From contig CAVPBI010000013.1 of NCBI GenBank assembly GCA_963701735.1, positions 141,323 through 205,322 on the forward strand: a stretch of DNA of 64,000 nucleotides, in the 5' to 3' direction. Origin of the DNA: an uncultured Ignavibacteria bacterium (lineage in GTDB: Bacteria > Bacteroidota > Ignavibacteria > UBA10030 > UBA6906). The notes under the pieces were generated by a model. It saw only the letters and a list, made by a program, of their open reading frames with translations, made no database searches and was not told where the DNA came from. Of the stretch, positions 7,108-45,530 are shown one piece after another (the stretch's first letter is position 1; the number at the start of each line of letters is the position of its first letter). Made by a program: the position numbers and the translations under genes.

Positions 7108-8009
7108 GAATACGTCTCCTGTTCGATCACGCGGCGCTGCAACAGAACGACCCCGAGGATGATCACCGCGTAGACGACGCCGAGCGTGGCGGCGTACCCC
7201 ATATGGCTGAAGTAGAAACCCTGGTTGTAGATATAGAGCATCCCCGACAGCGTGCTCTGCATGGGACCGCCCCCGGTCAGGACGTACGGCTCGATGAACA
7301 GCGAAAACCCGCCGATCGTCGAGAGGACGATCACAACCATGACGGTAGGATTCAGCATCGGCAGCGTGATCCTGAAGAATTTCGTGGCCGGCGGCGCTCC
7401 GTCGACATCCGCCGCGTCATAGACTTCCTGGGGAATGCTCTGCAGGCCTGCGAGGAACAGCACGATATAGATCCCCACATTCTTCCACGTCGCCATGATC
7501 GCGATGGAAGGCATCGCCAGCCGGGCATCCGTGAGCCACGGAAGCGGATCCGCGCCGAACCACCGGAGCATCACGTTCAGCAGCCCGTTGTCGAACCCGT
7601 ACAGCTGCCGCCAGAGGATGGTCACGACCACTCCGGAGACGACCACCGGCAGAAAATACAGCGCGCGGAAGAACCCCCGCCCGCGGATCTTCCCATTCAA
7701 CAGCATGGCGAAACCCAGGGCGACGACGATCTGCAGCGGAATGTGAATCACGAGGAAGAACAGTGTGTTGACGATCGACTTGAGGAAGAGCGGATCCTGC
7801 ACCAGCCTCCCGAAGTTCTTCAGGCCGATCCATTCCATCGGGGTGACGATATTCCACCGGTGAAACACAAGGATGAGCGAGAAGACCAGCGGATAGGCCA
7901 CGAAGGCCAGGAAGAACAGGACGTACGGCAGGACAAGGCCGTAGGCCGAACGGTTTTGCGGCGAGAGCAGCCCGCGTCCGGTGCGCAGAAGTTTGCTCAT
8001 CGGTTCCAC
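7104..8009 (-). CDS. carbohydrate ABC transporter permease (MalF/UgpA-like)
   Basis: 301 aa multi-TM, …YDAADVDGAPPATKFFRITLPML… EAA motif. Confidence 0.9.
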   Translation of the reverse strand: MEPMSKLLRTGRGLLSPQNRSAYGLVLPYVLFFLAFVAYPLVFSLILVFHRWNIVTPMEWIGLKNFGRLVQDPLFLKSIVNTLFFLVIHIPLQIVVALGFAMLLNGKIRGRGFFRALYFLPVVVSGVVVTILWRQLYGFDNGLLNVMLRWFGADPLPWLTDARLAMPSIAIMATWKNVGIYIVLFLAGLQSIPQEVYDAADVDGAPPATKFFRITLPMLNPTVMVVIVLSTIGGFSLFIEPYVLTGGGPMQSTLSGMLYIYNQGFYFSHMGYAATLGVVYAVIILGVVLLQRRVIEQETYS

Positions 8010-37068: not shown

Positions 37069-37310
37069 AGGGCAATCCGGATGGAGGATGGATAGATGCG
37101 GAAATCTAGAAACCAGGGGCCTGCAATGCAACACGGGAGCCCGGGTGTAGGAGTTACCTCTGTGTGGTTGGATATTCTACAAAACCTCATGTTCGGCGAC
37201 TGAAAAAAGCTCGAATTCCAGCCCAGAAACCCGTGGCATGCGATATGAACCTCGAATGCGCGGCAACACAGTCGAATCCATCATCCATCATCCAAATCGT
37301 GGAGGTATCT

Positions 37311-37809
37311 GTGCGCTATACAGCTCTCCTTGCTCGCGGCTCTGGTATGTCTGGTCCTGGCGTCCAATACGGGCCTTTCCCAGAACACCGCAAACCAGAC
37401 CCTGAACTTCTCGGTCGCTGCCATTGCGAGGATCACCGTGTCGGGTAGTCCTGCACCGCTGTCGATCACCGCTGGAACGCCAGGGACGGACGCCCTGACC
37501 CCTGTCAGCAATGCGCTGACAACCTACAGCATCACCCACAACTCCAACACGCCGCTGCAAATCACCGCGGCATTGGATGCAAACATGCCGAGCGGAACAA
37601 AGCTTGAGATCTCTCTCGCCAGCAGCAAGGGATCGGGCGGGAGCACAGTGGACATCACCTCAGCCGCGGCGACGGCAGTGCCCGTCGTCACCTCAATTGC
37701 CAGGGGCGCGGATGCAGGCCGTTCGATCACCTATACGTTTTCCGCTGACGCGTCTGCCGGTGCCATGTCATCGTTCGCCAGAACCGTGACGCTGACGCTG
37801 ACCAACTAG
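37311..37809 (+). CDS. secreted Thr/Ser/Ala-rich beta-protein A (candidate pilin/SCPU-like fibre subunit); probable GTG start with +1 frameshift ~37335 (alternative TTG 37330)
   Basis: GGAGGT 5 nt upstream of GTG 37311 gives MRYTALLA then frame change to AALVCLVLASNTGLSQ (textbook signal peptide); mature ~145 aa, 45% T/S/A, ends …RTVTLTLTN. Confidence 0.45.
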
Positions 37810-37823
37810 GAGTGACATGAGCC

Positions 37824-37841
37824 CCGGGGAGAGATCCCCGG
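37824..37841 (+). terminator. GC hairpin (ccgggg-agagat-ccccgg) followed by AT-rich tract, 15 nt after gene A stop; candidate attenuator/partial terminator
   Basis: Perfect 6-bp stem read from sequence, then acattcaatcattcata (AT-rich for this genome); 200-bp gap before gene B. Confidence 0.45.
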
Positions 37842-38015
37842 ACATTCAATCATTCATACGGCCCGGAGGGCGGTGGGACTTTCCGGGAACCGAACATGGT
37901 CGCCGCGTGGGGGTGCGCTAGGCCCGCGCGGCGACATGTTGCTTTGATGGGATACCCTATGACATCGGACTTTCGAGGGAGAATGGGCGGAACCCCGGAG
38001 CCACCGGTCGCTGCC

Positions 38016-38519
38016 ATGCGCCAAAGGAGAGCCGCTCTCCTTGCCTTTGCAGCCGCGCTCGTCGCGGTCATCATCTCCACTCCGACAGCATCAGCGCAGA
38101 TATTCGACATTGGCACGCACACCATCAACGTCCAGGTCTCCCCGATCACAGTCCTGGCTGTCCAGGGGGGAGCAGTGATGTTGAACGTCACGGACGCAAA
38201 TGTGACCGCGGGGGTGGACGCCATGACGGTGCAGGATCAGTCCACGCGGCTCGCCTGGGGCACGAATAGCAGCGCCAGGAAGATCACCGCGCAGACAAGC
38301 CTCGCGGCGCCCCTGTTTCAGCTTCGGCTGGCCGCCGTGGGTCACACGCGCGGGAATCCAGCCCCGGAGATGCTCCTCGGGACGTCGCCGCAAAACCTGA
38401 TGCTCGATATCGGCCGATCGCTTGGCAGCTGCACGCTCCGGTACACAGGGACGGCGCTCGCCTCACGGGGGGTTGGGACAGACATCCATACGATCACGTT
38501 CACGGTCACGACCCAATGA
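38016..38519 (+). CDS. secreted beta-protein B (paralog of A/C; candidate minor pilin-like subunit)
   Basis: MRQRRAALLAFAAALVAVIISTPTASAQ signal; mature N-terminus IFDIGTHTINVQVSPITV alternating hydrophobics; C-terminus …DIHTITFTVTTQ. Confidence 0.45.
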   Translation: MRQRRAALLAFAAALVAVIISTPTASAQIFDIGTHTINVQVSPITVLAVQGGAVMLNVTDANVTAGVDAMTVQDQSTRLAWGTNSSARKITAQTSLAAPLFQLRLAAVGHTRGNPAPEMLLGTSPQNLMLDIGRSLGSCTLRYTGTALASRGVGTDIHTITFTVTTQ

Positions 38520-38980
38520 ATGCTCCACTGCGGTTCGGATTTCTCGCGGTTCTGATGTGCATCGCCGCGATGGCAGGAGCACAGGATCTGAGTGTCCGGG
38601 GAGGGAACCAGGTCCTTCAGATTACGTCAGCACAGACCGGCCAGGAACCGACACCGGTCGTGAACACGGCGACGAACCTCAGGTATCGCCGGCAGCCACA
38701 GACGTCCAAGATCACGGTATCAACAAGCTGTCCCGGTCAGAGCTTCACGTTGCGCGTCAGGGCAGTCAGTGTTCAGGACGGAACTCCCGCCCCGACAGTC
38801 ACACTCACCAACGGGATGCCGGCGGCCGATCTGGTCAGGGACATACCGGCCGAGGGCGGCAGACCGCGCCGCCGCACGGCGACGCTTGAGTACACCGCCA
38901 GCGCAAGCTTTAAGCAGGGAAACAGCAACGAAGTCGGCGCGGACGCCCACGTCATCACATTCACACTCGTAGCACAATAG
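38516..38980 (+). CDS. secreted beta-protein C (paralog of A/B; candidate pilin-like subunit)
   Basis: ATGA start/stop overlap with B; signal MNAPLRFGFLAVLMCIAAMAGAQD; C-terminus …AHVITFTLVAQ nearly identical to B's. Confidence 0.45.
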   Translation: MNAPLRFGFLAVLMCIAAMAGAQDLSVRGGNQVLQITSAQTGQEPTPVVNTATNLRYRRQPQTSKITVSTSCPGQSFTLRVRAVSVQDGTPAPTVTLTNGMPAADLVRDIPAEGGRPRRRTATLEYTASASFKQGNSNEVGADAHVITFTLVAQ

Positions 38981-38991
38981 CACCGCTCGCC

Positions 38992-39813
38992 ATGAAACCA
39001 CTCCCCCATATAGCATGTGTCATCCTGCTCGTCACCCTGTGCGCGACCGTGGCCGCCGCGCAAATCGCGCTCGTGGGCGACCTGAGCTACGACCGCCAGG
39101 CTTCCCCCGGCGATTCATACGAAGGGTCCTTCACCCTCCGGAACGACGGGGCCCAGCCTGCAGAAGCAAAGATCTATCAGACCGATTACAGCTTTTCGTG
39201 CAACGGCGAGACAGAGTACGGCGAGCCCGGGCGCTTGGCGCGATCGAACGCCCGGTGGATCGAGTTTCGCCCGGACCGCCCTGTGATTCCCCCCCATGGA
39301 TCGGTGGTGGTCCAGTACTCGGTGAAAGTTCCCCGGAACGCCGGAAACGATTCGCTCACAGGGTGCTACTGGAGCATGCTGATGGTGGAAGAGGTTGTCT
39401 CGGGATCGCCTGAGTCCGCTCTCCCCTCCGCCAACCAGCAGAGCATGGGACTGCAGCAGAAGATCCGATACGCGGTTCAGATCGCGACACATATCACGGG
39501 CACCGGAACCTCTTCCGTCCAGTTTTCGGAGCCAGCCCTCACACAGGTCGACTCTGTCGGGAAGGCTCTCCGCGTATCGATCACCAACACAGGCGAGACC
39601 TGGATGCGTCCGGACGTGTACCTCGAGCTCTTCGACGCATCCGGGAAATCGCAAGGCCGCATCGAGGGGAGTAAATTCCGGATGTACCCGGGAACGTGCG
39701 TGCGGCAGGAGATCAGGCTCCCGTCCCTGCCTCCCGGCGACTACACGGCGCTTGTCGTCGTTGATGCCGGCGGAGAGCAGGCATTCGGCGCCCAATACAC
39801 CGTGAAGCTCTGA
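38992..39813 (+). CDS. periplasmic two-domain beta-sandwich protein D (candidate pilus-assembly chaperone; PapD-like or CARDB/NEW3-like Ig fold)
   Basis: Signal MKPLPHIACVILLVTLCATVAAAQ; domain 1 …RQASPGDSYEGSFTLRNDGAQPAEAKIYQ…WIEFRPDRPVIPPHGSVVVQY… (resembles FimC TRVIYPAGQKQEQLAVTNN…LIQSW / FIVTPPLF…LRI pattern but also E's N-terminal repeats); second ~110-aa domain. Confidence 0.4.
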   Translation: MKPLPHIACVILLVTLCATVAAAQIALVGDLSYDRQASPGDSYEGSFTLRNDGAQPAEAKIYQTDYSFSCNGETEYGEPGRLARSNARWIEFRPDRPVIPPHGSVVVQYSVKVPRNAGNDSLTGCYWSMLMVEEVVSGSPESALPSANQQSMGLQQKIRYAVQIATHITGTGTSSVQFSEPALTQVDSVGKALRVSITNTGETWMRPDVYLELFDASGKSQGRIEGSKFRMYPGTCVRQEIRLPSLPPGDYTALVVVDAGGEQAFGAQYTVKL

Positions 39814-39823
39814 CAGGTTCTCA

Positions 39824-42553
39824 ATGCGGAACGCGCCCACACGGATCCGCGTGCTCCTCCGCCTCGCGCTGACGTTCGCGGCGGTCCTGGCACCCGTGTG
39901 TGCCGCTGCCCAGGAACCGGCCGCCCGCATTTACGTGCAGGCTCTCTTCGCACCGTTCGACACGCTCAGGCCGGGCAACATCCAGACCCTCCCCTTCCGC
40001 ATCGAGAACCGCGGCGACTCCACGGTGTCTGTGACCGATCGCCTCGACGCTCCCCGCGGATGGAACGTGGTTGCGGGAACGGCCGGGCTTGCGCTGAAGC
40101 CGGGCGAGTCCGCCACCCGCCTCGTCTCCGTGTCGCTCTCGGCAACCGCCGAAGAAGGGATTCACGAGATCCGGTACACCGTCACCCCAACCGGCATGGA
40201 CGGCAGCGTGACCCTGCCGCTCCCCGTCCGCGTCGCGGCACGGAAAGGATTCAGCGTCCAGTTCCTGGACGGCCCAGCCATGCTGCCCGCGGGCGAGACA
40301 TCCATCGTCCGCTTCATTGTGCAGAATAGCGGCAACATCCCTGTCTCGCTGTACCTCAACGCGTCGACAACCGGGGGCGGCCAGGCTGCGCCTGAGTCCA
40401 CCATCGTGTATGTGCGGCCCGGCGAGGCGCGGGACGTCTCGGTGAGGGTGCAGTCGCCGGAGCATACCCGGTCGCGACAGCAAGCCGTGATATCGCTCTC
40501 GGCAACCGTCGTCAACGATTCCGCGATCACCCGCCAGGCCTCCACGGTCATCGAGATGATTCCGCGGACGTCCACAGAAGGTCCGGACCCCTACGTGCGG
40601 CTCCCCATGCGCGCTACGCTCAGGTTCGCCGGGGAAGAAGGACGCACGGGATTTCAGGGCGAGCTCGCCGGCATGGGGTATCTCGGGGCCGCCCAGCAAG
40701 ACCGCTTCGATCTCTTTGTGAGGACTCCGAATCTTCAGGAGATATCCATCCTGGGGCAGATCGACGAATACCGTGCCGCACTCGAGGGTCAGCGGTACAC
40801 GCTCGTCGTCGGCGACGCCACATATGCGCTCACGCCGCTCACCGAATACGGCAGGTTCGCCTTTGGCGGCGGGGGCAAGGTCGAACTTGGGGACATCGAA
40901 CTGGGCGGGTTCTACAACCGCAATCGTCTGGCCGCCTCCAATCAACAGGAGGTCGCGGGTTTCGCAGCGCTCTCCGTCACTCCTCAGGCGAAAATGTCCC
41001 TGCAGTATCTCGGGAAGTCCGAACAGTTCGAGAGCTCGATCGCCTCCTTCCGTACGCTTATCGAACCGACCGAGTATTCGCAGATCGATGGGGAATTCGC
41101 GCGCAGTTTCACCGGCGGTGAGTACGAGGACGCGTATGCACTGAGGTTGAGCGGCCGGACACAGGTTGTGATGTATGACCTGACCTACATTCTCGCCGGT
41201 CCGAACTTCACCGGCTACTACAGGGATACGGACCACAGAACCGCCTCCATCGTGGTGTACCCGTGGAAACTGCTGAGGCTGGAGGCATACCTCCGCGACG
41301 AGGACCGCAACCTCGACAGGAACCCCGCGCTGTACGCCGCCCCCCGACAGAAGCACCTGCAGGCGGGCGCCGGGTATGGCAACTACCTGACCGTTCTGTA
41401 CAAGACGTCAAGCTACGTCGACCAGCTCGAGGCGAAGAAGTTCGACAGACACGACAACACCGTGCTGATCCGGAGCGGGCACAGCGCCGGGAATATGACG
41501 CTCCTTGCAGAGGCAGAGGCGGGCACGATTGCCGAGCGGGCGTACAACACATCCGGCCCGTACCGCAGGCTCATGCTGTTCACCGGGTTCTCCCCGTGGA
41601 GCGGTCATCAGTTCGGCGTCAACCTCGAATACTTCAAGGACCTCCAGCTCCAGACCGGGGCACCGATCGACCGCATCGCCGCAACGCTGAACGGCCGGGA
41701 TGCAATCGGCGGACACACGTGGGTCGACGTCAACCTTCACCTGAGCCGCACGATCTCGGAACCCCGCCAGACATATCAGGTCCTTGAAGGCGGCATCCTC
41801 CATGAACTTCCCTTCGGCCATACAGTCGGCGCTCGCGGTCGGTTCACCCGGTACACGCCTTCTCTGGCGGGATCCGATGCCGCCTTTCTTCTCGAGTACA
41901 GCGTCCCGTTGGGCGTACCCATCGGCCGCGATGCCGGCGTGGGCACCCTCTCGGGGCGGCTCATCAACGACGAGACCGGCCTCGGGGTGGATGGGGCGCT
42001 GGTCTCCGCCGGCGGCCAGGCGGTGGCAACCGATGAATCGGGCCAGTTCGAATTCCCGGGCCTGGCGCCCGGCCCCCAGCATCTGACGGTGGACCTCTCC
42101 TCTCTTCCCAGAGGGACCATGCTGGCCGGGAACGGCTCGAACCAGGTCGTCGTGACGGGCGGCGAGGACCGCGAGATCGAGCTGCGCACGATGCGGAGCG
42201 TCAGCTTCTCGGGGACCGTGATCCTCGCGGCTGCGGATTCGGCCGTGGAAGCAGACAGCACACGGCTGTCCTCATCAGACTCCGGCGTCCAGGCTGGAGT
42301 CGTGGTCGAAGCGGTCAACGGTGACTTGCTCGTGCGGCGGCTGACCGACCAGTGGGGCAGGTTCGAGTTCCGGGACATGCGGCCGGGCGTGTGGATTCTT
42401 CGCGTCGCTGGAGGCAACGTCCCTGACGGACGTCGCGCTGAGAAGGACGCGTATCACCTCTCGTTGAGGGCCGGGGAGCACCAGAATGTTGACGTCCGAC
42501 TCGTCCCGAAGAAGAAGGTCATCCAGATCCTCGAAGGGGGCGTGCTGAGGTAG
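39824..42553 (+). CDS. outer-membrane usher-like protein E: signal + 2 CARDB/NEW3-like beta-sandwiches + ~450-aa beta-barrel-like core + 2 C-terminal CarbPepD/usher-CTD-like domains
   Basis: 909 aa intact; repeats …FRIENRGDSTVSV…LALKPGESATRLVSVSL… / …IVQNSGNIPVSL…VYVRPGEARDVSVRV…; amphipathic strands (…YTLVVGDATYALTPLTEYGRFAFGGGG…); …GTLSGRLINDETGLGVDGALVSAGGQAVATDESGQFEF… and …GVVVEAVNGDLLVRRLTDQWGRFEF…; non-aromatic C-terminus. Confidence 0.45.
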   Translation: MRNAPTRIRVLLRLALTFAAVLAPVCAAAQEPAARIYVQALFAPFDTLRPGNIQTLPFRIENRGDSTVSVTDRLDAPRGWNVVAGTAGLALKPGESATRLVSVSLSATAEEGIHEIRYTVTPTGMDGSVTLPLPVRVAARKGFSVQFLDGPAMLPAGETSIVRFIVQNSGNIPVSLYLNASTTGGGQAAPESTIVYVRPGEARDVSVRVQSPEHTRSRQQAVISLSATVVNDSAITRQASTVIEMIPRTSTEGPDPYVRLPMRATLRFAGEEGRTGFQGELAGMGYLGAAQQDRFDLFVRTPNLQEISILGQIDEYRAALEGQRYTLVVGDATYALTPLTEYGRFAFGGGGKVELGDIELGGFYNRNRLAASNQQEVAGFAALSVTPQAKMSLQYLGKSEQFESSIASFRTLIEPTEYSQIDGEFARSFTGGEYEDAYALRLSGRTQVVMYDLTYILAGPNFTGYYRDTDHRTASIVVYPWKLLRLEAYLRDEDRNLDRNPALYAAPRQKHLQAGAGYGNYLTVLYKTSSYVDQLEAKKFDRHDNTVLIRSGHSAGNMTLLAEAEAGTIAERAYNTSGPYRRLMLFTGFSPWSGHQFGVNLEYFKDLQLQTGAPIDRIAATLNGRDAIGGHTWVDVNLHLSRTISEPRQTYQVLEGGILHELPFGHTVGARGRFTRYTPSLAGSDAAFLLEYSVPLGVPIGRDAGVGTLSGRLINDETGLGVDGALVSAGGQAVATDESGQFEFPGLAPGPQHLTVDLSSLPRGTMLAGNGSNQVVVTGGEDREIELRTMRSVSFSGTVILAAADSAVEADSTRLSSSDSGVQAGVVVEAVNGDLLVRRLTDQWGRFEFRDMRPGVWILRVAGGNVPDGRRAEKDAYHLSLRAGEHQNVDVRLVPKKKVIQILEGGVLR

Positions 42554-42564
42554 GCCGTGCGCCA

Positions 42565-42581
42565 CCCCCTCCGGACGGGGG
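42565..42581 (+). terminator. GC hairpin ccccc-tccggac-ggggg 12 nt after gene E stop
   Basis: Read directly; no U-tract (common in high-GC genomes). Confidence 0.45.
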
Positions 42582-42724
42582 CTACCCGGCCCCACTCCGC
42601 CGCCACATCCGCCTGCGCTGCCTTTGAACTATTTCATCCCCGCCCCGTATAACGGAGAGAGCCAGGAGCTTGGATTTCTGAGCCCTTCTCATTAATCTCC
42701 GGGCACACCTGCGAGTTCGAGCCG

Positions 42725-45530
42725 ATGACCCTCATGAGCATTCCGCCCGGACTGTTCCGGGCTTTCCTGTTGACGAACACCGGAGTCCTGCTGGTCCTCT
42801 CCGGGGTGTCGCTCTACCGGTACGGCAGCATCCCCACGGACGAGAATCTCTTCACGGGCACTCCGTCTCATGTCTATGCCCTCGATTCGGTCCGCGTCAA
42901 CCCCGTGACATTGAAGAGGGTCGCGCCCTTCCTCCTTCCCGGCGACGTCATCGTTGCAATCGACAACATCAACGTGAACACGGGGCTGAATTACAGAACC
43001 GTCGTTCAATCGGCCTCGCGCGACAGCCACACCGTGATGTTTCACCGTCTCGCGGCCAACCAGCGCTTCCTGGGACGCATGGCCGCACACGACCTGGATT
43101 CGCTGCGCGTCAGGGTCCTCCCGTCGTGCGCCTACGTGACCGCCGTCAGCCCGGGCGGCGCGTCCGACCGCGCCGGCATGCTGGTCGGGGACCTGATCCT
43201 CAGGATCAACGGGAGCACATTCTCCACAATCTCGGAGGCCGACAGGCTGATGCGCCTCGGTCAGTCGGGGAAGGCACTGCAGTATGACATCCTCCGGGAC
43301 AACACGCCCCGGACGCTGCAGGTCACGATGGCCGCGTGGGGGTTTCCGTTCGGCATCATCGTCCTCGTCGTTTCAGGGATCCTCTGGATCGCAACAGGGC
43401 TGCTCCTCGGGCTCTCCCGGCCGCAGTATCCGGGGGCTCGACTGCTCGGCATCTTCTTTGTTCTCCTTGGATTTGGCATCACGGTCCTCGCGCTCCAGCG
43501 CGAGCCGACGTTCGATCTGTTTGTGATCGTGAGGGATATCGCCCGCGTCTCAGCATTCCTGCTGGCGTTTCCAATCGCACTCCACGCCGAGCACTACTTC
43601 CCCCTGGATCAGCCGCAATACATCAGCCGGCCGTGGATTCGCTATGTGGCATACGGCATTGCGCTCGCGGGAATCCTGTTGAGCGCGGTCTGGAGTGGGG
43701 TCTGGTTCGCGTTCGCGCTGATCGCTCTGGCGGCCTTCCAGATCGTCGTCGCGATCGTGCACAACAAAGAGAAGCCGATCCGGGTCAAGGAGATCACGCG
43801 GCCGATCACGATCGCATGGTCGCTGGCGGTCGCTGGCGCCGTGGTGATCGCCATCGGTTCGACCAGCCTCGCCGTCCTCACCAACAATCAGTCTCAAACG
43901 TGGATTGGTCTCGCGGGCATCCCGTTGCTGCTCATACCGGCGTCCTACCTCTACGTGATCGGCAGACATCGGCTCTTCGGTCTGGACCTCCGGATCCGCA
44001 GGAACCTTCAGTATCTGTTCGCGGCGACATCCTGGCGCCTTGGGACCATCATCCTGTTCGGGGTGGTCCTGGTCGTCCTGTCCCGCTGGGATCCGGACGT
44101 TCCGAACATCCAGTTGACAGGGACATCGCTCGAAGTCCGCGACACTCCTCCGACCGGCGAAGAGAGGCGCGTGCTGCAGAACATCATGATCGTGGGGGCG
44201 GCGCTGCTGCTCACGGGCGTGCTCTGGAAAGCCGGATCGACGGGCCTTTCATTTCTGGACCGCCGGTTCCACCGCTCCGGATACGACTACCGGAGGGCGA
44301 CAAACGAGTTGTCGGAAGTGATGGCGCGGACACAGAGCATGACCGAGCTGGCGAAGGGGATGGTGGAGCGACTGGCGGTCCTGATGCGGGTCAAGCGGGC
44401 CGGCGTGATGTTCTTCAGGGATGAGGTGGCGTGCTGCGGGCACGAAGCCTACGGGTTTGAGGATGTCACATGGAAGGAGTTCTGCGTTCGGTCGGACCGG
44501 GCTGTCGCCGAGGGACTCAAGCGGTTTCGCGGACCGGTTGCAGTCAGCGCTCTCCCCCCTGCCGTCGCGCAGGGCTTCAGCCAGAGCGAGTTCGCCGTCG
44601 TGGTCCCTGTGTTCTCGAAGGACCGCCTGATCGGGGCACTCCTGGTCGGGGAGAAACAGTCCGAGACATCGTTTCACGAGGAAGATTTTGCGTTTCTCAC
44701 GACCGCCGCCAACCAGGCGTCGGTCGCGATCGAGAATTCCTTCCTCTACGAAGAGCTGGCGGAGCAGGAGCGCATGAAGCACGAGTTGAGAATCGCGCGG
44801 AAGATCCAGCTCGAATCCCTCCCGCAGAGCACCCCCCGTGTCGAAGGGCTGGATATTGCGGGATCCTCCGTGCCGGCAATGGAAGTTGGCGGCGACTACT
44901 ATGACTATCTCACCGGCGAGGCGGGCACGCTTACCGTCATCATGGGTGATGTCAGCGGGAAGGGAACGTCGGCTGCGCTCTACATGTCGAAAGTCCAGGG
45001 GATTATGCGCTCGCTCCATGCGTTCGGACTCGGGCCGCGCGATCTCCTGCTGCGTGCCAATTCCCTGCTCCACGGCGACATCGAGAAGCGGTCGTTCGTC
45101 ACCGCCGTGGGTGCCAGGTTTGACATCCCCGGATCGCCGCGTGCGCATTGCCCGGGCCGGGCACCTTCCGGTATACCACTATCGGGCCGGTGAGCGGGCG
45201 GTGGCCAGAATTCTGCCGCGGGGACTCGGGTTAGGCTTGAACTCAAGCCCCCTCTTCGAAGAAGAGCTGGAAGAAGTCTCGATACCGTTCGCGCCGGGCG
45301 ACCTGTTTGGGTTTGTCACCGATGGCGTGACAGAGGCCGAGCGCGCCGGAGGCGAGCAGATCGGCGAGGAGAGGGTGATGGCGGTGCTGCGGGAATGTGC
45401 GGGCGAGAACGCGACTGCGGTGCGCGACGCCGTCCTCCGGGCCGTGGAGGAATTCGCAGACGGGGAACGACAGACGGACGACCGGACGGTCGTCGTGGTC
45501 CGGATTACCGCGCTCCGGGCTGGCTCATAG
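42725..45530 (+). CDS. PDZ / multi-TM sensor / GAF / PP2C (SpoIIE-RsbU-type) serine phosphatase; frameshift ~45130-45180
   Basis: PDZ-like …VSPGGASDRAGMLVGDLILRINGS…; >=8 TM helices; GAF …FAVVVPVFSKDRLIGALLVGEK…; phosphatase …GGDYYDYL…VIMGDVSGKGTSAALYMS… continuing in ORF 44838-45530 frame (…RIARAGHLPVYHY…TDGVTEA…). Confidence 0.75.

What the first reader, a model, noticed from the sequence alone, without database searches (positions are those of the whole stretch)
37160..42590. Five-gene, single-strand operon resembling a chaperone-usher (archaic/SCPU-type) surface-fibre assembly system in a T9SS-bearing, high-GC lineage
This is the only + strand block in ~45 kb. It has a GGAGGT RBS, three small secreted T/S/A-rich beta-proteins (A 37311-37809, B 38016-38519, C 38516-38980), a ~250-aa two-domain periplasmic beta-sandwich protein (D), and a 909-aa OM protein (E) with N-terminal beta-sandwiches, a ~450-aa barrel-like core and two C-terminal CarbPepD-like domains. 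E ends on a non-aromatic residue, as ushers do. B and C share an ATGA start/stop overlap, D and E follow with 10-12 nt spacers, and a GC hairpin lies 12 nt after E. The gene order subunit-subunit-subunit-chaperone-usher and the domain topology match Csu/sigma-fimbrial and Myxococcus spore-coat-protein-U operons. However, D's first domain also resembles E's N-terminal CARDB/NEW3-like repeats. It could therefore be an analogous, undescribed assembly system rather than a PapD/PapC homolog. Nothing comparable is an established feature of T9SS-type FCB-group genomes.
Basis: partly seen in the sequence, partly recalled or inferred. Interest (0 to 1): 0.85.

Follow-up and report, generated by a model that had tools for sequence, protein, structure and literature searches.

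The report
Usher-like fibre assembly operon, Ignavibacteria
This is a real five-gene operon, conserved across many environmental bacteria, that looks by predicted structure and gene order like a very distant, so far undescribed cousin of the chaperone-usher machines that build adhesive pili, and its "chaperone" is related to a surface protein of Gram-positive bacteria.

Summary
The five genes exist as described, apart from a 1-nt frameshift in gene A. No Pfam or NCBIfam model of ushers, PapD chaperones or fimbrial/SCPU subunits matches them.

- **A, B and C:** paralogues of a family with no Pfam model.
- **D:** a divergent relative of the Gram-positive WxL-interacting protein (DUF916/DUF3324). 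It is not a recognisable PapD.
- **Synteny:** the order [A]n[B]n-C-D-E(-A) recurs in about 85 loci. These come from Ignavibacteria, other Bacteroidota, several further diderm phyla, cultured Chryseobacterium and Deinococcus deserti.

The best reading is an undescribed chaperone-usher-like surface-fibre pathway. Donor-strand exchange, D's fold and any fibre remain untested.

The parts
37278..37296 (+). Short 7-nt repeat (ATCCATC, about 2.7 copies) just upstream of the ribosome-binding site of A
   Evidence: The DNA alignment with the 94% relative L002 shows exactly one more 7-nt unit there. Its role is unknown. It could be an expression-tuning or slippage site.
37301..37306 (+). GGAGGT ribosome-binding site of gene A
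   Evidence: Read directly from the sequence. It lies 4 nt before the GTG at 37311, the codon from which relative P0148 begins (MRYTALL...).
37311..37809 (+). Gene A, the predicted major fibre subunit. The start is GTG 37311, with a +1 frameshift near 37333 in this window. The in-frame ORF runs from TTG 37330.
37810..37855 (+). Stem-loop directly after the stop codon of A, within a 206-nt A-B intergenic gap
   Evidence: ViennaRNA on the 70 nt after the stop (37810-37879) gives dG -31.6 kcal/mol, against -22.1 +/- 3.2 for 200 mononucleotide shuffles. Stop-to-stop spacing implies roughly 100-350 nt after A-type genes in other loci (my estimate), whereas B-C-D-E are tightly coupled.
38016..38519 (+). 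Gene B, a paralogous small secreted subunit (167 aa; signal peptide ...ASA|Q)
   Evidence: ORF. The A, B and C family HMMs cross-hit the same ORFs. No Pfam family.
38516..38980 (+). Gene C, a paralogous small secreted subunit (154 aa), always immediately upstream of D where it is present
   Evidence: ORF. ATGA overlap with B. Synteny and C-to-D stop-to-stop spacing of 828 nt.
38992..39813 (+). Gene D, a soluble periplasmic two-domain Ig-like protein and candidate chaperone. It is a divergent member of the WxLIP (DUF916/DUF3324) lineage and lacks the C-terminal membrane helix of Gram-positive WxLIP.
   Evidence: BLASTP E 1e-30 to the Chryseobacterium 266-aa neighbour, which passes Pfam gathering scores for PF06030 and PF11797. 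10 of 31 family members hit PF06030 weakly. 644 clusters at E <= 1e-30. Always adjacent to E wherever both genes are on the contig.
39824..42553 (+). Gene E, an outer-membrane usher-like protein (909 aa)
39929..40561 (+). E residues 36-246: two N-terminal Ig-like domains (NEW3/CARDB-like, then a PapD/ASH-like Ig)
   Evidence: Pfam NPCBM_assoc 50-121; FixG_C and Cep192_D3 155-240. Strand pattern.
40592..41929 (+). E residues 257-702: transmembrane beta-barrel with about 26 DSSP strands and no separate plug domain. The most conserved stretch is residues 261-368.
   Evidence: DSSP string of the model. Conservation. No sequence match to any solved protein in this region.
41942..42508 (+). E residues 707-895: two C-terminal transthyretin-like (CarboxypepD_reg) domains, inferred to be periplasmic
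   Evidence: Pfam PF13620, two stretches. NOMO match in PDB. E relatives carry an additional SPOR domain (PF05036). That SPOR binds peptidoglycan is from my own knowledge.
42565..42581 (+). G+C stem (CCCCC-N7-GGGGG) 11 nt after E's stop, with no T-run
   Evidence: Sequence. The 67 nt after the stop fold at -23.6 kcal/mol, but into a different structure. Not called by the terminator scan. Function uncertain; the next + strand gene starts at 42725.

Best explanation
The operon encodes a self-contained, chaperone-usher-like pathway that builds a surface fibre or polymer.

- **Export (shown from sequence):** A, B and C (about 140 aa when mature), D and E all carry signal-peptidase-I signal peptides with Gln at +1.
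- **Chaperone step (inferred):** in the periplasm, the two-Ig-domain protein D caps and stabilises the pilin-like subunits by lending them a beta-strand.
- **Usher step (inferred):** D delivers the subunits to E. E is an outer-membrane protein with the usher layout: periplasmic N-terminal beta-sandwiches, a large barrel, and two periplasmic C-terminal beta-sandwiches.
- **Polymerisation (inferred):** at E the subunits polymerise by donor-strand exchange and are threaded outward.
- **Roles of the subunits (inferred):** A is probably the major subunit. It is the first gene, is followed by a stem-loop and a long gap, and is often duplicated. B and C are translationally coupled to D and E, and would be minor, adaptor or initiator subunits.

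The system is not a sequence-recognisable member of any described chaperone-usher clade. Its chaperone belongs to the WxLIP lineage otherwise known from Gram-positive WxL/Csc surface clusters.
For: **E resembles ushers**
- The model is confident (pLDDT 84).
- Foldseek's nine best hits are all full-length FimD or PapC, at E 1.7e-14 to 4.7e-11 with 750-820 aligned columns. LptD, Occ porins and TonB-dependent receptors start at 3e-6.
- E relatives carry an additional SPOR domain. SPOR binds peptidoglycan (my knowledge), so if it sits C-terminal to the CarboxypepD_reg domains the C-terminal domains face the periplasm, as in ushers.

**The subunits resemble pilins**
- The A model has pLDDT 90.9.
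- Across 273 subunits, the conserved C-terminal strand of alternating Thr and hydrophobic residues ends 1-2 residues before the C-terminus. An alternating V-x-L-x-V segment follows the mature N-terminus.

**D is a WxLIP relative**
- Evidence: - For that family, AlphaFold2 complexes predict that a WxLIP strand completes the beta-sandwich of its WxL partner (PMC10599100).

**Synteny**
- [A]n[B]n-C-D-E(-A) occurs on one strand in about 85 loci, with 1-8 paralogous subunits and D-E always adjacent.
- B-C-D-E are tightly coupled.
- The cassette also occurs in Chryseobacterium and Deinococcus deserti.
- The order matches csuA/B-A-B-C-D-E (my knowledge of the Csu operon).
Against: - No sequence-level membership. 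Usher, PapD_N/C, Fimbrial, SCPU and DUF4402 are all absent at E <= 1 for the window proteins and at E <= 0.05 for the 98 subunits.
- Profile-profile comparison with E. coli K-12 chaperones, ushers and pilins gives only 13-32% probability.
- The barrel segment of about 446 aa, with about 26 strands, leaves no room for the roughly 85-aa plug that defines ushers (the plug size is from my knowledge).
- No two-domain tip adhesin was found in 85 loci.
Its chaperone-like cleft is inferred from a paper on distant relatives.
- Whether the subunits lack a strand could not be read from the model, because no coordinates were available. In the A monomer model the N-terminal 19-32 segment is confident but is not a DSSP strand.
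- There is no experimental evidence for a fibre.
Confidence: 0.6

Rival explanations
1. A non-filamentous cell-surface complex, the diderm counterpart of the Gram-positive WxL/Csc cluster. E exports or anchors the small proteins. D holds them as a stable, stoichiometric surface complex, for example for binding polysaccharides or other cells. No polymerisation takes place.
For: - D is the only component with sequence homology to a described system, and that system (WxLIP with WxL proteins) is viewed as a surface complex, not a pilus.
- No tip adhesin and no plug.
- Several different small paralogues occur in fixed order, as with small and large WxL proteins.
Against: - The small proteins have no WxL domain (PF13731) in any of 98 members.
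- D lacks the membrane helix that tethers WxLIP, as the sequence shows.
- A's nearest folds are polymerising pilins.
- E's nearest folds are polymer-secreting ushers.
- A-type genes are amplified up to 5 copies in a locus, which fits a bulk structural subunit.
Confidence: 0.22
2. An outer-membrane uptake or porin system. E is a large channel, and A-D are periplasmic or surface binding proteins that feed it, loosely like SusC/D or other barrel-plus-accessory systems.
For: - CarboxypepD_reg domains are also found on SusC-type transporters (one search shows such neighbours in Chryseobacterium).
- The Chryseobacterium cassette sits between SusC/D pairs.
Against: - E has no Plug (PF07715) match; a TonB box was not looked for separately.
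- Its CarboxypepD_reg domains are C-terminal, not N-terminal.
- Foldseek favours ushers over TonB-dependent receptors by about 8 orders of magnitude.
- The subunits are pilin-like, not SusD-like or lipoproteins: their signal-peptidase-I sites have no lipobox Cys.
- Genomic neighbours outside the cassette are not conserved.
Confidence: 0.06
3. A chaperone-free matrix fibre like TasA, archaeal bundling pili or cannulae. The subunits self-assemble outside the cell. E is only the exit pore, and D is a structural or anchoring component rather than a chaperone.
For: - No recognisable PapD.
Against: - D is the most conserved protein of the cassette: mean column identity is 60-62%, against 17-44% for the subunits.
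- D is strictly coupled to E, as expected for a machinery component that handles all subunits.
- WxLIP relatives are predicted to insert a strand into their partners.
Confidence: 0.1

Closest known systems
Chaperone-usher pili: archaic sigma class (Acinetobacter Csu, Pseudomonas CupE) and alternate alpha/class 5 (CFA/I, CS1)
   Same: - Gene order: subunits, then periplasmic two-domain protein, then outer-membrane protein, then sometimes an extra subunit.
- E has the usher layout of periplasmic N-terminal domains, a large barrel and two C-terminal beta-sandwiches, and FimD and PapC are its best structural matches.
- The subunits are mature Ig-like proteins of about 140 aa whose best matches are CfaB, CS17, CooA, CsuA/B and CupE.
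- All parts are Sec-dependent.
   Different: - No Pfam or NCBIfam match to Usher, PapD_N/C, Fimbrial or SCPU.
- About 26 strands and no plug domain discernible.
- E's N-terminal part is two CARDB/NEW3-type Ig domains, not the usher N-terminal domain. Its C-terminal domains are transthyretin-like.
- No two-domain tip adhesin.
- The chaperone candidate belongs to another family (WxLIP).
- Hosts are Ignavibacteria, other Bacteroidota, Deinococcus and others rather than Proteobacteria.
Gram-positive WxL / Csc cell-surface clusters (WxLIP = DUF916 + DUF3324; CscA with CscB/C WxL proteins)
   Same: - D is homologous to WxLIP. Its Chryseobacterium orthologue passes both Pfam gathering scores, and 10 of 31 family members hit PF06030.
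- It is clustered with several small secreted beta-rich proteins.
- WxLIP is predicted to complete its partner's beta-sandwich with a donated strand (PMC10599100).
   Different: - No WxL domain in any small protein.
- D has no C-terminal membrane helix.
- An outer-membrane barrel protein is part of the cassette.
- No LPXTG partner was seen, though none was specifically searched for.
- The hosts are diderms.
Chaperone-free donor-strand filaments (Bacillus TasA, Pyrobaculum AbpA, Sulfolobus thread, Pyrodictium cannulae)
   Different: - Those systems have no dedicated periplasmic partner and no outer-membrane pore.
- There is no sequence similarity.
Type V pili of Bacteroidia (FimA/Mfa1 with Mfa2/FimB anchor)
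   Same: - Found in the same broad phylum.
- Polymerisation by strand exchange.
- RefSeq names the Deinococcus D-like protein 'FimB/Mfa2 family fimbrial subunit'.
   Different: - Type V pilins are lipoprotein precursors matured by a protease, with no usher-like pore (my knowledge).
- Here the subunits have signal-peptidase-I sites.
- The Mfa2 hit is marginal: 21.7 bits against a cut-off of 21.2, over 58 residues.

Membership tests
Chaperone-usher pathway (classical definition) | Outer-membrane usher recognisable as Pfam Usher PF00577 (plus the PapC N- and C-terminal domains) | tested here: not met
   There is no such hit for E at E <= 1. A profile of 26 E homologues finds no usher in the PDB by sequence. 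hhalign against 5 E. coli ushers gives 12.7% probability over 90 barrel columns, but the positive control EcpC versus the FimD type gives only 3%.
Chaperone-usher pathway (classical definition) | Usher architecture: periplasmic N-terminal domain, 24-strand barrel, internal plug domain, two C-terminal beta-sandwich domains | tested here: inconclusive
Chaperone-usher pathway (classical definition) | Periplasmic chaperone with PapD_N (PF00345) and PapD_C (PF02753) domains | tested here: not met
   No hit for D or for 31 family members. hhalign gives 18% against FimC-type chaperones and 32% over 183 columns against EcpB/EcpE.
Chaperone-usher pathway (classical definition) | Chaperone is a two-lobed Ig boomerang that donates its G1 strand to the subunit | not testable with these tools
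The only support is indirect. D's WxLIP relatives are described as two perpendicular Ig domains that insert a strand into WxL (PMC10599100). D also has a strongly conserved, alternating IRYGIQIATHI segment at the end of domain 1.
Chaperone-usher pathway (classical definition) | Subunits belong to the Fimbrial PF00419, SCPU PF05229 or related families | tested here: not met
   None of 98 diverse subunits hits any of these, or any Pfam family consistently. No PDB match by profile.
Chaperone-usher pathway (classical definition) | Subunits have a pilin-type incomplete Ig fold with an N-terminal donor extension | tested here: inconclusive
Chaperone-usher pathway (classical definition) | Operon with subunit(s), chaperone and usher on one strand | tested here: met
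Gram-positive WxL / Csc cluster | WxLIP protein with PF06030 (PGBD) and PF11797 (HBD) | tested here: inconclusive
   Window D itself hits neither at E <= 1. Its Chryseobacterium homologue (BLASTP 1e-30) passes both gathering scores. 10 of 31 family members hit PF06030 below the cut-off, and 1 of 31 hits PF11797. This makes D a homologue, but a divergent branch.
Gram-positive WxL / Csc cluster | At least two WxL-domain proteins (PF13731) in the cluster | tested here: not met
   no WxL hit in A, B, C or in 98 relatives.
Gram-positive WxL / Csc cluster | WxLIP ends in a transmembrane helix | tested here: not met
   D and its relatives end right after domain 2 (...GAQYTVKL), with no hydrophobic tail.
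TonB-dependent / SusC-type transporter | N-terminal plug (PF07715) and TonB box inside a 22-strand barrel | tested here: not met
   No Plug hit. Foldseek ranks TonB-dependent receptors at E >= 2e-5, against 1e-14 for ushers. A TonB box was not searched for as a motif.
Type V (Mfa/Fim) pili | Lipoprotein pilin precursors; Mfa2/FimB anchor (PF08842) | tested here: not met
   The subunits have signal-peptidase-I A-x-A|Q sites (189 of 273) and the sequences shown carry no lipobox Cys. Only the Deinococcus D-like protein touches PF08842, marginally (21.7 against 21.2 bits).

The most novel reading that the evidence does not exclude
The cassette would be a previously unrecognised, deep-branching class of chaperone-usher machinery, widespread in environmental diderms: Ignavibacteria and other Bacteroidota, with MAG hits also labelled Rhodothermales, Gemmatimonadaceae/Longimicrobium, Zixiibacteriota, Pirellulales/Phycisphaerae and Desulfobacterales/Syntrophales, plus Deinococcus. 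Its chaperone is the ancestor or sister of the Gram-positive WxLIP. If so, the enigmatic WxL/Csc surface clusters of lactobacilli, enterococci and Listeria would be the monoderm remnant of a donor-strand assembly pathway. Usher-type secretion would then be far older and broader than the proteobacterial clades suggest.
Probability: 0.3. Interest if true: 0.85.

Novelty: new variant of a known kind. Interest (0 to 1): 0.7.

Why it matters
- **Reach of usher-type assembly.** Chaperone-usher pili are regarded mainly as a feature of Proteobacteria and a few other phyla. Bacteroidota are known instead for type V pili and the T9SS (my knowledge).
- **Scale of the family.** The marker protein D alone has 644 clusters (50% identity) at E <= 1e-30, so a structurally usher-like pathway in FCB-group and other environmental diderms would extend the known reach of this mechanism.
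- **New protein families.** The small subunits and the E barrel are currently unannotated. E is labelled 'COG1470' or 'carboxypeptidase regulatory-like' in databases.
- **Link to Gram-positive biology.** The work suggests a mechanistic hypothesis for the poorly understood Gram-positive WxL/WxLIP clusters: strand-donating chaperoning.
- **Testability.** The cassette exists in cultured Chryseobacterium species and in Deinococcus deserti, so the hypothesis can be tested directly.

Tried and rejected
- **Family scans of A-E.** Pfam and NCBIfam found no usher, PapD, fimbrial, SCPU, DUF4402 or WxL match. Scanning 98 diverse subunits one by one found no recurrent family.
- **Sequence and profile searches of the PDB.** For A, the subunit superfamily, D and E, only E's terminal Ig and transthyretin-like domains matched.
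- **hhalign against E. coli K-12 proteins.** Profiles were built from 6 FimC-type plus 2 Ecp chaperones, 5 FimD-type plus 1 Ecp usher, and 14 pilins. All probabilities were 32% or lower. The known-homologue controls were just as weak, so this test cannot decide either way.
- **AFDB Foldseek search with the A model.** The library was not available, so a structural link between A-C and WxL domains could not be tested.
- **tblastn of a D homologue against plasmids, to fetch a Firmicute WxL cluster.** It returned the Deinococcus deserti cassette and a Cohnella DUF916 gene beside Tad-pilus genes, but no WxL cluster.
- **Search for a two-domain adhesin subunit.** None was found. The three long hits are ORF-extension artefacts.
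- **Sigma-54 promoter upstream of A.** Absent in the window and present in only 6 of 61 loci.
- **Literature searches for a described DUF916 or COG1470 plus outer-membrane barrel system.** Nothing was found in the open-access library.
- **Rejected readings.** The long antisense ORFs (for example 39821-41356 on the minus strand) were not tested; I treat them as high-GC artefacts because the + strand genes have conserved homologues. E as a TonB-dependent transporter was rejected because there is no plug.

Full report
**Observation**

The window has five consecutive + strand ORFs:

| Gene | Coordinates | Size |
|---|---|---|
| A | 37330-37809 (in frame) | 159 aa |
| B | 38016-38519 | 167 aa |
| C | 38516-38980 | 154 aa |
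| D | 38992-39813 | 273 aa |
| E | 39824-42553 | 909 aa |

- GGAGGT lies at 37301-37306.
- B and C overlap by ATGA. The C-D spacer is 11 nt and the D-E spacer is 10 nt.
- A C5/G5 stem starts 11 nt after E's stop. It has no T-run and the terminator scan did not pick it up.

Two corrections are needed.
A second frameshift lies in the next + strand gene, in the 44.9-45.2 kb overlap of its two ORFs. The window therefore probably carries assembly indels.
- The + strand block continues past E through a PDZ-GAF-SpoIIE gene to about 45.5 kb.

**Source and spread**

- The nearest genome is an uncultured Ignavibacteria MAG, with D 92% and E 94% identical.
- A scan of one genome per species with a D profile returned 123 relatives, of which 80 loci were kept.
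- ORF calling plus family HMMs on 85 loci gave the recurring order [A]n[B]n-C-D-E(-A), all on one strand. Each locus has 1-8 small paralogues, and D and E are adjacent in every locus where the contig reaches both.
- Hosts are mostly Ignavibacteria and other Bacteroidota. MAGs labelled Rhodothermales, Gemmatimonadaceae/Longimicrobium, Zixiibacteriota, Pirellulales/Phycisphaerae, Desulfobacterales/Syntrophales and Bacteriovoracaceae also appear. Some of these bins may be contaminated.
- The cassette is also in cultured Chryseobacterium glaciei and on plasmid 2 of Deinococcus deserti VCD115. The A-family HMM recognises their small proteins at 3e-7 to 9e-13.
- In the 1.84-billion-protein representative library, the D profile finds 644 clusters at E <= 1e-30 and 3298 at E <= 1e-3.

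**The small proteins**

- A, B and C are paralogues: the family HMMs cross-hit.
- They have signal-peptidase-I signal peptides with Gln at +1, as do D and E.
- Mature length is about 128-143 aa.
- They share an alternating V-x-L-x-V N-terminal segment. They also share a conserved C-terminal strand of alternating Thr and hydrophobic residues that stops 1-2 residues before a polar C-terminus.
- No Pfam, NCBIfam or PDB sequence match exists for them or for 98 diverse relatives.
- The AlphaFold2 model of A is confident (pLDDT 90.9).
- I could not verify a missing strand, because model coordinates are not exposed and no multimer prediction is available.
- No locus has a two-domain adhesin-type subunit.

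**D**

- D has no family hit of its own.
- It aligns at E 1e-30 with the Chryseobacterium neighbour of the E homologue. That protein passes the Pfam gathering scores of WxLIP_PGBD (DUF916) and WxLIP_HBD (DUF3324).
- Ten of 31 D-family members also touch PF06030.
- WxLIP is the conserved partner of WxL proteins in Gram-positive surface clusters. It is described as two perpendicular Ig-like domains, and AlphaFold2 complexes predict that one of its strands completes the WxL beta-sandwich (PMC10599100).
- D differs in having no C-terminal membrane helix, so it should be a soluble periplasmic protein.
- D is the most conserved protein of the cassette, at 60-62% mean column identity.
- It contains a strongly conserved, alternating IRYGIQIATHI segment at the end of its first domain. 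I propose this as the candidate donated strand. This is inference only.

**E**

The AlphaFold2 model (26-sequence alignment, mean pLDDT 84, pTM 0.55) has this layout:

| Residues | Feature |
|---|---|
| N-terminus | signal peptide |
| 36-246 | two Ig-like domains (NEW3/CARDB-like and PapD/ASH-like by Pfam) |
| 257-702 | about 26 consecutive beta-strands |
| 707-895 | two CarboxypepD_reg domains |

- Foldseek is more discriminating. The nine best hits are full-length FimD or PapC, at E 1.7e-14 to 4.7e-11 with 750-820 aligned columns. LptD, Occ porins and TonB-dependent receptors begin at 3e-6.
- E relatives carry an additional SPOR domain. SPOR domains bind peptidoglycan (my knowledge), so if it follows the C-terminal domains, those domains, and with an even strand number the N-terminal ones too, face the periplasm, as in ushers.
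- The barrel has no room for a plug domain, and there is no Plug (PF07715) match.
- The barrel has no sequence similarity to any solved protein.

**Sequence-level tests against genuine chaperone-usher proteins**

I built profiles from E. coli K-12 fim, sfm, yad, elf, yeh and ecp genes and compared them with hhalign.

| Comparison | Probability | Aligned columns |
|---|---|---|
| D vs EcpB/EcpE | 32% | 183 |
| D vs FimC type | 18% | 54 |
| E vs FimD type | 13% | 90 (in the barrel) |
| Subunits vs pilins | 25% | 26 (C-terminal strand) |
| Control: EcpC vs FimD type | 3% | 213 |
| Control: EcpB/E vs FimC type | 54% | 120 |

Because the known-homologue controls are equally weak, the test is uninformative rather than negative. 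D versus E's N-terminal Ig pair gives 28% (E 6e-4).

**Operon logic**

- Stop-to-stop spacing shows B-C-D-E are tightly coupled. From these spacings I estimate roughly 100-350 nt of non-coding sequence after A-type genes.
- In the window a stem-loop directly follows A's stop; the 70 nt after the stop fold at -31.6 kcal/mol, against -22.1 +/- 3.2 for shuffles.
- This fits A as a separately dosed major subunit.
- Flanking genes are not conserved between loci.

**Interpretation**

The most economical reading is a chaperone-usher-like fibre assembly pathway:
- Sec export of the pilin-like subunits;
- capping by D;
- delivery to the usher-like E;
- polymerisation by donor-strand exchange and secretion.

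What is shown:
- the genes exist and their synteny is conserved;
- the A/B/C paralogy;
- D-WxLIP homology;
- E-usher and A-pilin resemblance in the predicted structures.

What is inferred:
- D's chaperone action;
- strand exchange;
- the existence of a fibre;
- the major and minor subunit roles.

I put this at about 0.6. The rivals are a non-polymeric WxL-like surface complex (0.22), a chaperone-free matrix fibre that uses E only as a pore (0.1), and an uptake system (0.06).

**Novelty**

None of the searched literature links DUF916/WxLIP or 'COG1470' proteins to an outer-membrane usher-like barrel. That library holds open-access papers only. Databases call these proteins hypothetical, 'COG1470 family' or 'carboxypeptidase regulatory-like'. 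I classify the cassette as a new variant of a known kind (chaperone-usher-type assembly). It is not a member of any described clade. It has a possible evolutionary bridge to Gram-positive WxL clusters.

Noticed in passing
window 37331-37334: Gene A carries one extra base relative to relatives that are 94-99% identical. This puts the GTG 37311 start and signal-peptide n-region out of frame with the rest of A. It is probably an assembly indel rather than biology.
   Followed up: yes
window 42725-45530 (frame change in the 44.9-45.2 kb ORF overlap): The PDZ-GAF-SpoIIE phosphatase gene downstream of E is split into two overlapping frames (ORFs 42725-45193 and 44838-45530), whereas the close relative has one 934-aa product. 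This is a second likely indel. The gene lies on the same strand as the operon, but it was not seen next to the cassette in the other loci examined.
   Followed up: partly
window 37278-37296; L002 about 7446-7475: A 7-nt unit (ATCCATC) upstream of A's ribosome-binding site is present about 2.7 times in the window and 3.7 times in the 94% relative. This is a copy-number difference in the 5' leader of the putative major subunit gene.
   Followed up: partly
L086 (Deinococcus deserti VCD115 plasmid 2, NC_012529.1 87735-92122): A compact version of the cassette: a 164-aa subunit, a 256-aa D-like protein, an 839-aa E-like protein and a 118-aa subunit-like protein. RefSeq names the D-like protein 'FimB/Mfa2 family fimbrial subunit', on a marginal Pfam Mfa2 hit.
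   Followed up: partly
L087 (Cohnella herbarum plasmid, NZ_CP051681.1 130685-143089): A Firmicute DUF916 protein sits directly downstream of TadA and several small proteins with hydrophobic N-termini that look pilin-like, not in a WxL cluster. DUF916 proteins may accompany more than one kind of filament system.
   Followed up: no
L003/L004 3666-5900; L005, L012, L030, L053, L054, L071 upstream of the first subunit gene: A sigma-54 activator and histidine kinase pair lies divergently upstream of the cassette in one Ignavibacteria lineage. TGGCAC-N5-TTGCA-like promoters precede the first subunit gene in 6 of 61 loci, against about 0.5 expected. There is none in the window.
   Followed up: partly
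E relatives P0009, P0010 and L003/L004 8816-11818: Some E homologues carry an additional SPOR (peptidoglycan-binding) domain. Others reach 1100-1380 aa with extra Ig-like domains.
   Followed up: partly
window A-E signal peptides; 189 of 273 subunits in related loci: All five proteins have Gln at the predicted +1 position after the signal peptidase site (A-x-A|Q). This fits the 'Q-rule' (pyroglutamate N-termini) described for Bacteroidetes, which I cite from memory.
   Followed up: partly
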